IMG/VR virus record: IMGVR_UViG_2778261136_000001
Span: 1 to 13,954 of that record
Reading direction: 5' to 3' (one strand)
Source: a virus
Taxonomy: Duplodnaviria; Heunggongvirae; Uroviricota; Caudoviricetes
Length of the DNA stretch: 13,954 nucleotides
The notes below the pieces were generated by a model. The model saw nothing but the letters and a program-made list of their open reading frames with translations. It was not told where the DNA came from and made no database searches. The translations under genes were made by a program, and so were the position numbers. Positions within the stretch are counted from its first letter, which is position 1. Each line of letters opens with the position of its first letter. Positions 1-2,861 of this stretch are shown piece by piece.

Positions 1-141
1 CAGTTGCTGGACAGGGTTTCCCCGTCTCAGTGGGCGGCAATAGGCGTGCTGGGGAGTCTGCTGTTTGGTCTGCTGACGTACCTGACGAACCTGTATTTCA
101 AAATCAGAGAGGACCGGCGTAAGGCGGCGCGGGGAGAGTAA
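1..141 (+). CDS. S: Holin, C-terminal fragment (phage 21 S21 pinholin-like); 5' end lies outside the window
   Basis: Frame 1 is open from base 1 to TAA at 139-141. It translates to ...[40 protein letters not shown]: a hydrophobic transmembrane stretch followed by a charged C-terminal tail. From memory this closely matches the C-terminus of the phage 21 pinholin. It sits 4 nt upstream of the endolysin start. Confidence 0.7.
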
Positions 142-145
142 GCTG

Positions 146-679
146 ATGAGCCGGAAATTCCGCTATGGTTTATCAGCTGTCGTTCTGGCGCTGATTGCCG
201 CAGGGGCTTCTGCGCCTGAAATCCTCGACCAGTTTCTTGACGAAAAAGAAGGTAACCACACTACGGCATACCGTGATGGTGCGGGTATCTGGACCATCTG
301 CCGTGGAGCCACCCGGGTGGATGGTAAGCCTGTTATTCCTAGCATGAAGCTGTCGAAGGGGAAATGCGACCAGGTTAACGCCATTGAGCGTGATAAGGCG
401 CTGGCATGGGTGGCGAAAAACATCAAAGTGCCACTGACTGAACCCCAGAAAGCGGGTATTGCGTCATTCTGTCCTTACAACATTGGCCCGGGTAAGTGTT
501 TCAGCTCAACGTTTTACCGGAAACTGAACGCCGGAGACCGTAAAGGCGCATGTGCTGAAATTCGTCGCTGGATATATGACGGTGGTCAGGACTGCCGTAT
601 TCGTTCAAACAACTGTTACGGTCAGGTATCCCGTCGTGACCAGGAGAGCGCGCTGGCGTGCTGGGGTATCGACAGGTAG
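146..679 (+). CDS. R: SAR endolysin (T4-type lysozyme / muramidase, phage 21 R-like)
   Basis: 177-aa ORF with SD GGGGAGAG at 131-138. N-terminus MSRKFRYGLSAVVLALIAAGASAPE is a weakly hydrophobic Gly/Ala-rich signal-anchor-release segment. It is followed by the lysozyme catalytic arrangement E...(8)...D...(5)...T in ...KEGNHTTAYRDGAGIWTICRG. Position immediately after a holin gene. Confidence 0.9.
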   Translation: MSRKFRYGLSAVVLALIAAGASAPEILDQFLDEKEGNHTTAYRDGAGIWTICRGATRVDGKPVIPSMKLSKGKCDQVNAIERDKALAWVAKNIKVPLTEPQKAGIASFCPYNIGPGKCFSSTFYRKLNAGDRKGACAEIRRWIYDGGQDCRIRSNNCYGQVSRRDQESALACWGIDR

Positions 680-814: not shown

Positions 815-952
815 TCTGCGCTTCGCACAAGCGTAAATAAACCAAAGAACCTTTCAGGATGAGCCCTGGTGGATAACCGGCAGTGGTCTGGTTAACCCTC
901 TTTGGGCTGGTTATTCCTGTGCGCAGGGTTCATCACTAAAAGGAAATAACCG
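815..952 (+). promoter_or_regulatory. Conserved 5' leader element, copy 1 (paralog of 2185..2318), upstream of the antirepressor-like gene
   Basis: Shares with copy 2 a GC hairpin (819-833, CGCTT-CGCAC-AAGCG), a 5' box AGAACCTTTCAGGATGA (846-862), a 3' box GGTTCATCACTAAAAGG (927-943) containing the SD, and the same 9-nt SD-to-ATG spacing with ATGAAT start context. The ~65-nt core between the boxes diverges. Confidence 0.6.
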
Positions 953-1522
953 ATGAATATGATGACCGTGCCGTTTCACGGCGATTCTCTTTATGTGGTT
1001 AACCATAACGGTGAGCCATACGTTCCCATGAAACCTGTCGTTGCGGGGATGGGGCTGGCCTGGCAATCACAGTTGGCTAAGTTAAGACAGCGTTTTGTGT
1101 CAACTATAACGGAAATCGTTATGGTTGCTGAGGATGGGAAACGACGCAATATGGTGTCCCTGCCACTTCGAAAACTTGCAGGCTGGTTACAAACCATCAA
1201 TCCCAACAAAGTAAAACCCGAAATCCGCGACAAGGTAATCCAGTATCAGGAAGAGTGCGACGATGTTCTCTATGAATACTGGACGAAGGGTTTTGTCGTT
1301 AATCCTCGTCAAATGAGCGTGATGGAAGAACTCAATCAGGCCTGCGCTGACATGAAACGGGATAAAAACATTGCCAGTGTGTTTTCTACCGGGCTGAATG
1401 AGTGGAAACAGGTTAAAGCCGCGCATGTATCAAAAATCCGCACATTGATAAACGAAGCGAATCTGCTGATTGATTTTGTCCTGGCTGATACAGGCAAAGG
1501 GAAAATAACAAAGGCGGATTGA
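953..1522 (+). CDS. Antirepressor-like phage regulatory protein (moron inserted between R and Rz)
   Basis: 189-aa ORF with SD AAAAGG 9 nt upstream. N-terminal region MNMMTVPFHGDSLYVVNHNGEPYVPMKPVVAGMGLAWQSQLAKL... resembles, from memory, the N-terminal domain family of P22-type antirepressors found in enterobacterial prophages. The function is not established from sequence alone. Confidence 0.55.
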   Translation: MNMMTVPFHGDSLYVVNHNGEPYVPMKPVVAGMGLAWQSQLAKLRQRFVSTITEIVMVAEDGKRRNMVSLPLRKLAGWLQTINPNKVKPEIRDKVIQYQEECDDVLYEYWTKGFVVNPRQMSVMEELNQACADMKRDKNIASVFSTGLNEWKQVKAAHVSKIRTLINEANLLIDFVLADTGKGKITKAD

Positions 1523-1536
1523 TGGAGTGGTGGCTA

Positions 1537-1671
1537 ATGATATCGGATAAACTCATAACGCTGGCGAAGATTCTCTGTGTAATCGTCGGCATTTCATTTT
1601 TAGTCATGCTGGTTGCCATTTTCTTTTCCACCGCCTGGAGAGTCCTGACGTTATCGGGACTGGTGGGGTGA
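1537..1671 (+). CDS. Small hydrophobic protein (44 aa, predicted single transmembrane helix); not in the supplied ORF track
   Basis: ATG at 1537 with GGAG at 1524-1527, TGA at 1669-1671. Translation MISDKLITLAKILCVIVGISFLVMLVAIFFSTAWRVLTLSGLVG is almost entirely one hydrophobic helix. It fills the gap between the ant-like gene and Rz with no wasted sequence. Coding status is unproven. Confidence 0.35.
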   Translation: MISDKLITLAKILCVIVGISFLVMLVAIFFSTAWRVLTLSGLVG

Positions 1672-1678
1672 AAGAGAG

Positions 1679-2116
1679 ATGAACCGTGTTCTGTGTGTGG
1701 TGATTATTGTCCTGGCGGTTGGCTGTGGTGCGCTGTGGCTGGCAACAAACCATTACCGTGACAACGCGCTCACCTACAAAGCGCAGCGCGATAAAGCCAC
1801 ATCCATCATCGCAGATATGCAGAAGCGGCAACGTGATGTAGCAGAACTTGACGCCAGATACACAAAGGAGCTTGCTGATGCTAATGCGACTATCGAAAGT
1901 CTCCGTGCTGATGTTTCTGCTGGGCGTAAGCGCCTGCAAGTCGCCGCCACCTGTGCAAAGTCAACGACCGGAGCCAGCAGCATGGGCGATGGAGAAAGCC
2001 CAGGACTTACAGCAGATGCTGAACTCAATTATTACCGTCTCAGAAGTGGAATCGACAAGATAACCGCGCAGGTTAACTACCTGCAGGAATACATCAGGAC
2101 GCAATGCCTGAAATAA
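1679..2116 (+). CDS. Rz: Rz inner-membrane spanin (i-spanin)
   Basis: 145-aa ORF with N-terminal TM segment and the motif ATNHYRDNALTYKAQRDK...DARYTKELADA...DVSAGRKRL, which closely parallels lambda Rz (VNHYRDNAITYKAQRDK...AKYTKELADA...DVAAGRRRL) as I recall it. Coiled-coil periplasmic domain. It contains the embedded Rz1 frame. Confidence 0.9.
   Translation: MNRVLCVVIIVLAVGCGALWLATNHYRDNALTYKAQRDKATSIIADMQKRQRDVAELDARYTKELADANATIESLRADVSAGRKRLQVAATCAKSTTGASSMGDGESPGLTADAELNYYRLRSGIDKITAQVNYLQEYIRTQCLK
1878..2063 (+). CDS. Rz1: Rz1 outer-membrane lipoprotein spanin (o-spanin), embedded in the +1 frame of Rz
   Basis: Perfect SD AAGGAG at 1865-1870, 7 nt before ATG 1878. N-terminus MLMRLSKVSVLMFLLGVSAC is a signal peptide ending in a lipobox (VSAC), followed by the Pro-rich mature region KSPPPVQSQRPEP. 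It lies entirely inside Rz in a different frame. The track ORF 1848..2063 is the same frame with an upstream start. Confidence 0.8.
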   Translation: MLMRLSKVSVLMFLLGVSACKSPPPVQSQRPEPAAWAMEKAQDLQQMLNSIITVSEVESTR

Positions 2117-2148
2117 TTTTTTTGCAAATCACAAAGTCCATTTAATGA

Positions 2149-2172
2149 GCCCCGCGATGCGGGGCTTTTTTA
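2149..2172 (+). terminator. Rho-independent terminator after Rz/Rz1
   Basis: Perfect 7-bp GC stem GCCCCGC (2149-2155) / GCGGGGC (2159-2165) with a short loop, followed by TTTTTTAT. Confidence 0.7.
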
Positions 2173-2318: not shown

Positions 2319-2861
2319 ATGAATTATCCAACTATCGTTAACGGCATCGATTTTCGAGATCTGATTTTTGTGGCAAACAACGATCCGGTTACAGATTCTT
2401 TTATGGTGGCAAAAGCATTTGGAAAGCTGCCGAAGAACGTAGTTCGTGACATTGAACGAACCATAGAAGCTTGCCCTCCTGAGTTTGATACAAAGCTCAA
2501 CTTTGAGCTTTGCTATAAAAACAATGAGTTACAGAATGGTAAGCCGCAAAAATTCTACCGTCTCCGCAAGGATGGGTTGATGCTTTTGGTTATGTCCTAC
2601 ACCAAAAAAGAAGCAATGCGTATCAAAATTGCTTACATCAACGCATTTAACTGGATGTACGCCATGCTTCAGGTTGGTCATCGTCAATTTGAAGAAGAGA
2701 GAAATGCCGTAATGCTGGAGTACATGAAAGAGAAGGATGTTGCCAGCATGTCAGGTCGCCTGCTAAATCGCTGGGGCAAAATTAAGAAGCCACAGCTGCT
2801 GGCTAGAATTGAACGCCTTGAACAGCACGGGCAAACCGTAATCCCCGGACTCATCAATTAA
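2319..2861 (+). CDS. Rha-family phage regulatory protein
   Basis: The track ORF 2259..2861 starts at GTG and reads through the leader. The likely true start is ATG 2319 (MNYPTIVNG...) with SD AAAAGG at 2304-2309. The region ...NDPVTDSFMVAKAFGKLPKNVVRDIERTIE...KFYRLRKDGLMLLVMSYTKKEAMRIKIAYINAFNWM matches my memory of the Rha regulatory protein family (HTH-like N-terminal domain). Confidence 0.7.
   Translation: MNYPTIVNGIDFRDLIFVANNDPVTDSFMVAKAFGKLPKNVVRDIERTIEACPPEFDTKLNFELCYKNNELQNGKPQKFYRLRKDGLMLLVMSYTKKEAMRIKIAYINAFNWMYAMLQVGHRQFEEERNAVMLEYMKEKDVASMSGRLLNRWGKIKKPQLLARIERLEQHGQTVIPGLIN

What the first reader, a model, noticed from the sequence alone, without database searches (positions are those of the whole stretch)
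1537..1671. Unannotated 44-aa single-helix membrane peptide between the ant-like gene and Rz
The ORF is below the threshold of the supplied track but has a start codon with an upstream GGAG, exactly fills the gap to the Rz SD, and encodes an almost purely hydrophobic helix (KILCVIVGISFLVMLVAIFFSTAW). Small membrane peptides within lysis cassettes can act as antiholins, lysis modulators or toxic membrane-depolarising peptides. Alternatively it is a chance ORF.
Basis: partly seen in the sequence, partly recalled or inferred. Interest (0 to 1): 0.5.

Follow-up and report, generated by a model that had tools for sequence, protein, structure and literature searches.

The report
Small membrane protein gene before Rz
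The 44-codon reading frame between the antirepressor-like gene and Rz is a real, conserved gene for a tiny one-helix membrane protein found in the lysis cassettes of many E. coli Shiga-toxin and lambda-like prophages; databases already list it as a hypothetical protein, but nobody has tested what it does.

Summary
Window 1537..1671 (+) encodes a 44-aa peptide, MISDKLITLAKILCVIVGISFLVMLVAIFFSTAWRVLTLSGLVG. A GGAG lies 9 nt upstream, and the stop lies 7 nt before the Rz start.

It is not a chance ORF. In 228 homologous places the frame is intact at 42-46 aa. dN/dS is about 0.28 in this frame against 0.45-1.75 in the other five, which is comparable to Rz. In divergent prophages, homology blocks begin and end at the ORF boundaries.

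It is not new. It belongs to PHROG phrog_4906 (function unknown). PGAP annotates it (WP_000455406.1; ECs_1966 in Sakai). Hücker et al. 2017 reported the Sakai copy as the translated small gene XECs191, from ribosome footprints.

The family is confined to E. coli/Shigella lambdoid phages, including 933W, where it is unannotated. It always lies in a lysis cassette after the endolysin. It abuts Rz/Rz1 or, in phiP27-like GH108 cassettes, a small lipoprotein. It has no promoter of its own.

AlphaFold2 predicts one long helix (pLDDT 90). The best reading is a late-expressed, dispensable inner-membrane accessory of lysis. That mechanism is inferred, not shown. Interest is moderate to low.

The parts
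1537..1671 (+). ORF44: 44-aa single-helix membrane protein gene (family phrog_4906; the Sakai copy is XECs191/ECs_1966). The start at the ATG at 1537 is favoured.
   Evidence: sequence. (phrog_4906, E 6.4e-29). (dN/dS 0.28, frame-specific). (228/228 intact). (helix 2-39, pLDDT 90). (RIBOseq for XECs191 = ECs_1966).
1522..1536 (+). Optional 5-codon N-terminal extension (MEWWL) used by PGAP. Its ATG overlaps the ant stop (TGATG). It is probably untranslated leader that contains the ribosome-binding site (GGAG 1524-1527, GGTGG 1529-1533).
   Evidence: PGAP CDS of 49 aa. (extension varies in sequence and length). (a TAG inside the extension in 3 loci; purine-rich SD-like motifs 5-10 nt before the conserved ATG in every context).
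953..1522 (+). Antirepressor-like gene (P22_AR_N + ORF11CD3). It is the variable upstream neighbour of ORF44; other prophages carry small TM genes in its place.
   Evidence: PF10547, E 2e-45. (upstream slot varies: ant, ANT, TM60, TM70).
1679..2116 (+). Rz i-spanin gene. It starts 7 nt after the ORF44 stop.
   Evidence: PF03245, E 4.5e-35. (the next gene starts between -8 and +7 nt of the ORF44 stop in 215 of 222 loci).
1878..2063 (+). Rz1 o-spanin lipoprotein gene embedded in Rz in the +1 frame (MLMRLSKVSVLMFLLGVSAC...).
   Evidence: sequence; AAGGAG at 1865-1870. (a 186-nt Rz1 is annotated at the same place in AP005153).
146..679 (+). Endolysin: a phage lysozyme with an N-terminal SAR-like hydrophobic segment.
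   Evidence: PF00959. (weakly hydrophobic N-terminal segment). PMC8136144, read, describes the Stx-phage endolysins as R21-like SAR endolysins.
4..141 (+). 3' end of the class II (S21-like) holin gene, cut by the window edge.
   Evidence: ORF. (class II holin annotated at this place in the identical prophage).
2147..2167 (+). Terminator-like hairpin after Rz/Rz1: 9-bp stem with 7 GC pairs, then a T run. It is the first such signal downstream of ORF44.
   Evidence: The same scan found no sigma-70-like promoter on either strand between 600 and 2400.

Best explanation
Window 1537..1671 is a genuine protein-coding gene. Its product is a 44-residue bitopic inner-membrane protein with three parts. 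A short amphipathic, lysine-bearing N-terminus (SDKLITLAK) is probably cytoplasmic. One very hydrophobic helix follows. The tail is about 10 residues, rich in small residues, and carries invariant W34 and L37 and near-invariant G41 and G44. The gene has no promoter of its own. It is transcribed with the lysis genes on the late (Q-dependent) transcript in the order S, R, ant, ORF44, Rz/Rz1. It is translated from its own Shine-Dalgarno, with its stop abutting or overlapping the start of the next gene. My committed reading is that it is a dispensable accessory of the lysis programme. It would act in the inner membrane through helix-helix contacts to tune a late envelope step. Holin or pinholin triggering, or i-spanin function, are the likeliest targets. 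It would not itself be a holin, endolysin or spanin. What is shown: coding status, conservation, membrane character, operon position, dispensability. What is inferred: topology, late expression, and any effect on lysis.
For: Coding status. The frame is intact at 42-46 aa in 228/228 places in 227 loci, with 29 protein variants. NG86 dN/dS has a median of 0.28 over 126 pairs. Contrasts chosen as roughly independent give Fisher p from 2e-4 to 0.018. The other five frames give 0.45-1.75, and four of them carry stops. Its omega is comparable to that of the adjacent Rz (0.28-0.51), while the endolysin is at 0.03-0.16. In divergent prophages the DNA homology block runs over query positions 41-173 of window:1500-1700, which is the ORF itself. 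Translation. Ribosome footprints were published for the Sakai orthologue XECs191 = ECs_1966. In LB the translatome RPKM is 12.6, the RCV 0.43 and the coverage 0.55. That study predicted inner-membrane location and one TM helix. SD-like motifs precede the conserved ATG in every context. Membrane helix. AlphaFold2 gives a helix over residues 2-39 at pLDDT 90.4. The Kyte-Doolittle score is 3.14. Lysis-module membership. In all 226 loci where downstream sequence is held, the ORF lies after an endolysin. It directly precedes Rz (174 loci), a 51-62 aa lipoprotein (48 loci), or a small TM gene followed by Rz (4 loci). The next gene starts -8 to +7 nt from its stop in 215 of 222 loci. It occurs in two unrelated cassettes. 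One is pinholin / SAR lysozyme / Rz. The other is holin_8 + holin_3_7 / GH108 / lipoprotein. It also occurs in phages with different virion modules. No promoter-like site lies on its strand nearby in three contexts. Dispensability. K-12 DLP12 and Qin have adjacent or overlapping rrr and rzp genes with no room for it. phiP27 and phiSTEC1575 have the lipoprotein without it.
Against: No experiment links the gene to lysis. The RIBOseq signal is weak, comes from uninduced cultures, and cannot assign a reading frame; the peptide also occurs in several prophage copies per genome, so read mapping is ambiguous. No phage-encoded membrane partner is common to all contexts. Holin, endolysin and outer-membrane-step genes all differ, and the Rz anchor sequences next to it vary. 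That weakens a specific partner model and leaves self-association or a host target open. Conservation does not show significant helical periodicity (510 of 5000 shuffles reach the observed power). One lineage (P0104, in L098) shows dN/dS above 1 against its nearest relatives. The promoter scan is a crude consensus match.
Confidence: 0.5

Rival explanations
1. It is a chance ORF or non-coding spacer. The frame happens to be open and the region is conserved only as DNA, for instance as the Rz ribosome-binding region.
For: ORFs of this length are common by chance (48 of at least 30 aa in 4 kb). There is no Pfam or NCBIfam match. The antisense -2 frame is also open in all variants.
Against: Substitutions are frame-specific (omega 0.28 against 0.8-1.75; the open -2 frame gives 0.45, as expected for the mirror of a coding frame). 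dS reaches 0.5-1.9 while the frame and its length are preserved in 228/228 places. Homology blocks end at the ORF boundaries. Ribosome footprints are published.
Confidence: 0.03
2. It is a lysogenic-conversion or superinfection-exclusion gene. A small inner-membrane protein would protect the lysogen or the infected cell, for example by blocking DNA entry of other phages as HK97 gp15 does. On this reading it is not a lysis factor.
For: The lambdoid lysis region is a known site for accessory genes such as bor (annotated). The gene is dispensable and moves by mosaic exchange. Low-level transcripts and footprints are seen in uninduced cultures. No common phage partner exists.
Against: No promoter-like site lies on its strand upstream in three contexts, and no terminator lies between it and Rz. 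It is packed within -8 to +7 nt of the next lysis gene. It tracks the lysis module rather than tail or receptor modules: it is found in Sepvirinae-type, lambda-like Sp10 and phiP27-like GH108-cassette genomes. PADLOC gives no match. The uninduced signal can be explained by spontaneous induction.
Confidence: 0.15
3. It is a membrane-damaging peptide. Accumulation would depolarise the inner membrane and so help trigger the pinholin, SAR-endolysin release and spanins. It would work like a mini-holin or a type I toxin.
For: It is extremely hydrophobic, 44 aa and a single helix, like Hok, TisB or Ldr-class toxins and the single-TMD lysis peptides of small phages (own knowledge). It is co-expressed with a pinholin/SAR-endolysin system that responds to depolarisation (own knowledge; cassette content).
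Against: It lacks the charged C-terminal domain typical of holins, and no holin Pfam family matches. No antisense promoter or other type I toxin regulatory signal was found. It also occurs with GH108 and large-holin cassettes that need no depolarising helper. It is carried in up to 11 places per genome without evident cost.
Confidence: 0.15
4. It is a translational-coupling leader ORF. Its translation matters because it delivers ribosomes to, or unmasks, the Rz start; the peptide itself would be irrelevant.
For: Its stop lies -8 to +7 nt from the next start in 215 of 222 loci. The Rz ribosome-binding region overlaps its last codons.
Against: Purifying selection acts on the amino-acid sequence, with invariant F21, W34 and L37 and near-invariant C14, G18, S20, M24 and G41. 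Many lambdoid phages express Rz directly after R without it. It also precedes a different gene, the lipoprotein.
Confidence: 0.07

Closest known systems
PHROG phrog_4906; RefSeq hypothetical proteins WP_000455406.1 and ECs_1966 (NP_309993.2); 'XECs191' of Hücker et al. 2017 (PMC5597208)
   Same: It is the same family. The HMM match is E 6.4e-29 over the whole peptide. The locus matches the RM10410 prophage at 100% DNA identity. The Sakai Sp10 copy sits in the same ant / ORF / Rz position.
   Different: Only minor sequence variation. The window copy has the MEWWL upstream extension and the 'FLVMLVAIFFSTAWRVLTLSGLVG' C-terminal half. None of these records assigns a function.
Antiholins and holin modulators (S21-71 of phage 21, P1 LydB, P2 LysA, T4 RI)
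   Same: They are small membrane-associated products of lysis cassettes, are dispensable, and act through protein contacts to set lysis timing (own knowledge; reviews listed).
   Different: There is no sequence relation. S21-71 and lambda S107 are alternative starts of the holin itself. LysA has several TMDs. RI has a periplasmic domain. ORF44 is a bare single helix, and it occurs with unrelated holin types.
Phage Mu releasin gp25 (DUF2730; Chamblee et al. 2022, PMC9239132)
   Same: It has a single N-terminal TMD, is encoded with a SAR endolysin, and is an accessory that acts on membrane-embedded lysis proteins (abstract seen; details from own knowledge).
   Different: gp25 is a membrane-tethered cytoplasmic protein with a sizeable soluble domain. 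ORF44 has none, does not match DUF2730 or any other Pfam family, and also occurs with a non-SAR GH108 endolysin.
i-spanin Rz N-terminal membrane anchor
   Same: It is adjacent to Rz and similarly hydrophobic. There is a short local resemblance: KILCVIV in ORF44 against RVLCVVI in Rz.
   Different: There is no periplasmic coiled-coil domain; only about 10 residues follow the helix. The resemblance is too short to claim homology. Other Rz alleles next to ORF44 have different anchors (MLSAFIVILLVACG).
Other small TM genes of the endolysin-Rz gap in E. coli prophages (phrog_1115 'TM60', phrog_4493 'TM28/TM57', phrog_6632 'TM70')
   Same: They occupy the same genomic slot and have the same size class, with a short polar N-terminus followed by one TM helix. 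They are often adjacent to ORF44 and are equally uncharacterised.
   Different: HMM searches detect no homology between phrog_4906 and these families.
Type I toxins and single-gene lysis peptides (Hok, TisB, Ldr; LysM of ssRNA phage M)
   Same: They are peptides of about 30-50 aa with a single TM helix that act in the inner membrane (own knowledge).
   Different: No antisense RNA or promoter signals were found. ORF44 is embedded in a multi-gene late operon that already has a holin, an endolysin and spanins. There is no sequence similarity.

Membership tests
PHROG phrog_4906 (phage protein family of unknown function) | Significant full-length match to the family HMM | tested here: met
   E 6.4e-29, 100.7 bits, residues 1-44 on profile positions 6-49 of 49. 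The divergent GH108-context homologue also matches (E 1.6e-19).
Protein-coding gene (as opposed to a chance ORF) | Frame preserved and under purifying selection in diverged homologues | tested here: met
   228/228 places intact; omega 0.28 in frame +1 against 0.45-1.75 in the other frames; comparable to Rz.
Protein-coding gene (as opposed to a chance ORF) | Evidence of translation | tested here: inconclusive
   published RIBOseq of the Sakai orthologue (RPKM 12.6, RCV 0.43, coverage 0.55 in LB). The signal is weak, the cultures were uninduced, the data have no frame resolution, and the locus is multi-copy.
Holin | At least one TMD, small size, encoded in a lysis cassette | tested here: met
Holin | Membership of a recognised holin family and a hydrophilic, highly charged C-terminal domain | tested here: not met
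   no Pfam family at E up to 1. The C-terminal tail is RVLTLSGLVG, or MMLSSSGLLG in the other subfamily, carrying 0-1 charge. A class II holin is already present upstream.
Holin | Lethal, timed hole formation that releases or activates the endolysin | not testable with these tools
   Needs inducible expression and lysis curves.
i-spanin (Rz-like) | N-terminal TMD plus a periplasmic coiled-coil domain long enough to reach the o-spanin | tested here: not met
   Only about 10 residues follow the TM helix. There is no PF03245 match.
Releasin (Mu gp25, DUF2730) | DUF2730 family membership: N-terminal TMD plus a cytoplasmic domain | tested here: not met
   no Pfam match. The peptide has no soluble domain.
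Type I toxin | Own promoter and an overlapping or adjacent antisense RNA regulator | tested here: not met
   no promoter-like site on either strand between 600 and 2400; no Rfam match in the region. The scan is crude, so this is weak negative evidence.
Moron (autonomously expressed lysogenic-conversion gene) | Flanked by its own promoter and terminator and expressed from the repressed prophage | tested here: not met
   no promoter-like site on its strand upstream in three contexts. The first terminator-like hairpin lies only after Rz/Rz1 (2147-2167). The ORF sits -8 to +7 nt from the next gene.
Anti-phage defence proteins (PADLOC) | Match to a known defence-system component | tested here: not met
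   no family at E up to 1.

The most novel reading that the evidence does not exclude
ORF44, together with the interchangeable small TM genes of the same slot (phrog_1115, phrog_4493, phrog_6632), would represent an unrecognised class of 'micro-TM' lysis accessories. These bare transmembrane helices would dock onto the membrane anchors of pinholins, SAR endolysins or i-spanins, or onto a host inner-membrane factor. They would set when the last envelope barriers fall, and in Stx phages this would also affect the timing and amount of toxin and phage release.
Probability: 0.25. Interest if true: 0.6.

Novelty: already known. Interest (0 to 1): 0.33.

Why it matters
Lysis by Stx prophages is the step that releases Shiga toxin. 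The textbook cassette is holin, endolysin and spanins, yet many of these phages, including the paradigm 933W, carry this additional conserved membrane gene, and it has been ignored. 933W's GenBank record does not annotate it (hit H127). If it tunes lysis timing or spanin action, it would add a regulatory layer to a well-studied pathway, and it would be cheap to test. If it has no phenotype, it is one more small accessory gene. Either way the comparative evidence settles that the ORF should be annotated, with its start at the conserved ATG (window 1537) rather than at PGAP's upstream ATG.

Tried and rejected
- **Remote homology.** Pfam, NCBIfam, PADLOC and a PDB profile search gave nothing. A full HMM scan of 1.84 billion representative proteins found only 28 clusters, all the same tight family or fragments of it. 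A scan of species-representative genomes found only a 328-bp contig in a Xanthomonas pisi assembly, 100% identical to the window peptide and probably contamination.
- **Conserved helical face.** I looked for helical periodicity in the conservation pattern as a sign of a binding surface. It was not significant: 510 of 5000 shuffles reached the observed power.
- **Co-variation with a partner.** The N- and C-terminal halves of the ORF recombine independently. The same C-terminal type occurs with Rz and with the lipoprotein, and different Rz anchors occur next to it. No partner can be inferred.
- **Duplicated Rz anchor.** I considered whether the ORF is a duplicated Rz membrane anchor. Only a 7-residue resemblance exists, so I did not pursue it.
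- **Mini-spanin.** I considered whether ORF44 plus the small lipoprotein form a mini-spanin in cassettes lacking Rz. The periplasmic segments are far too short, and phiP27 and phiSTEC1575 carry the lipoprotein without ORF44, so I rejected it.
- **K-12 orthologue.** I looked for one in order to exploit K-12 small-protein studies. There is none: rrrD/rzpD and rrrQ/rzpQ overlap.
- **Literature.** Full-text searches for the peptide, for accession numbers and for lysis-cassette small proteins found no functional study.
- **Rfam.** A scan of the window found no family in this region.

Full report
**What is in the window.** The first 3 kb are the lysis region of a lambdoid Stx-type prophage. They hold, in order:
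- the 3' end of a class II holin gene (4..141);
- a lysozyme-family endolysin with an N-terminal SAR-like segment (146..679, PF00959);
- an antirepressor-like gene (953..1522, P22_AR_N);
- the ORF in question (1537..1671);
- Rz (1679..2116, PF03245) with Rz1 embedded (1878..2063);
- a terminator-like hairpin (2147..2167);
- a Rha-like gene (2319..2861).

The stretch 1500-1700 is 100% identical to the Stx1a prophage of E. coli RM10410. That prophage shows the same gene order downstream of stx1AB.

**Check of the observation.** The ATG is at 1537, with GGAG at 1524-1527 (9 nt upstream) and GGTGG at 1529-1533. The TGA is at 1669-1671, and the Rz ATG is at 1679. The peptide is MISDKLITLAKILCVIVGISFLVMLVAIFFSTAWRVLTLSGLVG. 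It is very hydrophobic, with GRAVY 1.81. Its best 19-residue Kyte-Doolittle window scores 3.14, against 2.84 for the Rz anchor and 1.91 for the endolysin SAR segment. AlphaFold2, run with a 22-sequence alignment, gives one continuous helix over residues 2-39 at mean pLDDT 90.4. An ORF of this size is not unusual by chance, since 48 ORFs of at least 30 aa overlap the first 4 kb. The verdict therefore rests on comparative data.

**It is a real gene.** I collected 227 related loci from annotated phage records, complete E. coli genomes, IMG/VR contigs and public assemblies.
- All 228 copies keep the frame open at 42-46 aa. They comprise 29 distinct protein variants.
- Among the 19 distinct DNA variants in the first 96 loci, Nei-Gojobori dN/dS has a median of 0.28 over 126 pairs. 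For the deepest comparisons dS reaches 0.5-1.9 while dN stays at 0.13-0.32.
- The signal is specific to this frame. The other five frames give 0.45-1.75, and four of them contain stops. The open antisense -2 frame, at 0.45, is the usual mirror effect of a coding frame.
- Five contrasts chosen as roughly independent give Fisher p between 2e-4 and 0.018 for an excess of synonymous change.
- Measured on the same genome pairs, the ORF's omega is usually 0.22-0.5. That is comparable to Rz (0.28-0.51) and higher than the endolysin (0.03-0.16).
- In divergent E. coli prophages the DNA homology block covers query positions 41-173 of window:1500-1700. This is the ORF and nothing else.
- Rare frameshifted or internally deleted variants exist in the protein database, mostly as singletons. 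Intact forms are seen on hundreds to more than a thousand contigs.

**Start codon.** PGAP calls a 49-aa product from the ATG at 1522, which overlaps the ant stop. The five extra codons differ between copies (MEWWL, MGWL, MERWL, MEWRL). They contain a TAG in three loci, and they do not exist where another gene precedes the ORF. The ATG aligned with window 1537 is universal and is always preceded by a purine-rich SD-like motif.

**It is already catalogued.**
- The peptide matches PHROG phrog_4906, of unknown function, at E 6.4e-29.
- Several phage records annotate it as a hypothetical protein: phi191 AHJ10600.1, phiON-2011 ORF49 and PhiR12 phages.
- PGAP annotates it widely.
- In the Sakai reference genome it is ECs_1966 in prophage Sp10, between the antirepressor and the endopeptidase.
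- Hücker et al. 2017 (PMC5597208) listed that copy as the novel small gene XECs191 on the basis of RNA-seq and RIBOseq. In LB the transcriptome RPKM is 30.0, the translatome RPKM 12.6, the ribosome coverage value 0.43 and the coverage 0.55. The values are lower in BHI. PredictProtein called it inner membrane with one TM helix, and their classifier called it 'real'. This is weak but direct evidence of ribosome occupancy, obtained in uninduced cultures.
- No paper in the searchable library reports a functional test.

**Distribution.** The family is narrow.
- All 67 word-indexed protein hits are E. coli.
- A full HMM scan of 1.84 billion representative proteins gave 28 clusters, all variants or fragments of the same family.
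- tblastn found it in 276 of 50,697 phage records, all from Escherichia or Shigella phages. These include 933W, phi24B, Min27 and the O104:H4 Stx2a phage, often unannotated.
- The DNA query matched 1750 of 5426 complete E. coli genomes, 767 of them over at least 80% of the query, with up to 11 places per genome.
- K-12 lacks it. In DLP12 and Qin the lysozyme and Rz-like genes overlap.

**Genomic context.** The loci are a biased sample (the best hits of three searches), so counts describe architectures rather than frequencies. The rule has no exception in this sample: the ORF lies inside a lysis cassette, after the endolysin.
- Of the 226 loci where downstream sequence is held, Rz follows directly in 174. 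A 51-62 aa lipoprotein follows in 48. A small TM gene and then Rz follow in 4.
- The next gene starts between -8 and +7 nt of the ORF's stop in 215 of 222 cases.
- Two unrelated cassettes carry it. One is S21-type holin (with or without YdfR), SAR lysozyme, a variable slot, ORF44, Rz/Rz1. The other is holin_8, holin_3_7, GH108 endolysin, a variable slot, ORF44, lipoprotein, with no Rz at all.
- The variable slot upstream holds a P22_AR_N antirepressor (as in this window), a KilAC/ANT antirepressor, or other small TM genes: TM60 = phrog_1115 and TM70 = phrog_6632.
- The cassettes sit in genomes with different virion modules: N4-gp56-type capsid in RM10410, lambda-like Sp10, and phiP27-like GH108-cassette genomes (L101/L102) with HNH and terminase genes.
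- No sigma-70-like promoter was found on its strand between the endolysin and Rz in three contexts. The first terminator-like hairpin follows Rz/Rz1.
- The gene is dispensable for a lysis cassette. K-12 prophages lack it, and phiP27 and phiSTEC1575 have the lipoprotein but lack it.

**How it most likely works.** The shown facts are these: it is a conserved, probably translated, very hydrophobic single-helix peptide gene embedded in the late lysis operon and packed against the gene for the outer-membrane step. From these I infer three things.
- It is expressed only with the late transcript.
- It inserts into the inner membrane with the lysine-bearing N-terminus in the cytoplasm. The positive-inside bias is weak: K5 and K11 against R35 in some subfamilies and no C-terminal charge in others.
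- It acts there through helix-helix contacts as a non-essential modulator of a late lysis step.

That it tracks the lysis module rather than tail or immunity modules, and lacks its own promoter, argues for a role at lysis time and against lysogenic conversion or exclusion. I cannot name the target. No phage-encoded membrane protein is shared by all contexts, the neighbouring Rz anchors differ, and conservation shows no significant helical face. Self-association or a host inner-membrane target is as compatible with the data as holin or spanin binding.

My confidences are as follows:

| Claim | Confidence |
|---|---|
| It is a real gene encoding a membrane peptide | about 0.9 |
| It is a late-operon member | about 0.8 |
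| It affects lysis timing or efficiency | about 0.45 |

**Comparison with known systems.** It works most like the accessory membrane proteins of lysis cassettes, such as antiholins and the Mu releasin. It fails the testable membership criteria of each family considered.
- There is no holin Pfam family match and no charged C-terminal domain.
- There is no periplasmic domain, so it is not an i-spanin.
- There is no DUF2730 match and no soluble domain, so it is not a releasin.
- There are no type I toxin regulatory signals.
- There is no PADLOC match.

The only family to which it demonstrably belongs is phrog_4906/XECs191, whose function is unknown.

**Verdict.** It is in RefSeq, in PHROGs and in a 2017 ribosome-profiling paper. 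What remains open is its function, which is experimentally cheap to address and relevant to Stx-phage lysis. Interest is moderate to low (0.33). The most novel reading still allowed is a class of bare-helix 'micro-TM' lysis modulators, with probability about 0.25.

Noticed in passing
window 843-946 and 2216-2312: Two copies (about 78% identical) of a roughly 100-nt leader lie directly upstream of the ant-like gene and the Rha-like gene. Each folds into a long hairpin (MFE -43.1 kcal/mol, z -3.6; -36.0 kcal/mol, z -2.6). In the fold, a 5' CCUUU pairs with the AAAGG Shine-Dalgarno of the downstream gene. This may be an SD-sequestering translational control element for the inserted regulator genes. 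No Rfam family matches.
   Followed up: partly
L006 2804-2986; L007 2786-2998 and 3263-3349; L230 2826-2999: The endolysin-Rz gap of E. coli lambdoid prophages holds a set of interchangeable, uncharacterised small single-TM genes: TM60 (phrog_1115), TM70 (phrog_6632) and TM28/TM57 (phrog_4493). They often lie next to ORF44. TM28/TM57 and TM60 appear related to each other but not detectably to ORF44.
   Followed up: partly
L193 3625-3822; L005 3148-3330; L101 4167-4322; L229 2995-3183: phiP27-type lysis cassettes (holin_8 + holin_3_7 + GH108 or M15 endolysin) have no Rz/Rz1. They end instead with a 51-62 aa lipoprotein (LVGC lipobox, three Cys in a 30-residue mature part; phrog_7528) of unknown role. 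How these phages breach the outer membrane is unclear.
   Followed up: partly
window 1522-1536 (L004 8023-8037): PGAP and Hücker et al. start the gene 5 codons upstream, at an ATG overlapping the ant stop. This extension is variable, is interrupted by a TAG in three loci, and is absent in other contexts, so the annotated start is probably wrong.
   Followed up: yes
L013 (NZ_JPLE01000251.1, 328 bp): A 328-bp contig in the Xanthomonas pisi DSM 18956 assembly encodes a peptide 100% identical to the window's ORF44. It is almost certainly contamination of that assembly with E. coli prophage DNA.
   Followed up: no
L098 3749-3880 (protein P0104): One lineage of the family (MSGKLTKLAEILWIIACISFSATLAAFLLSMAWMALSSSGLVG) has lost the otherwise near-invariant Cys14. 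It shows dN/dS above 1 against its closest relatives (1.13-1.52). This could be relaxed or diversifying selection in that branch.
   Followed up: no
window 1413-1631 and 1604-1939, minus strand: Long antisense ORFs (72 and 111 aa) overlap ORF44. The antisense -2 frame is open in all 19 variants with an apparent dN/dS of 0.45. This is the expected mirror of a hydrophobic coding frame and is not evidence for an antisense gene.
   Followed up: yes
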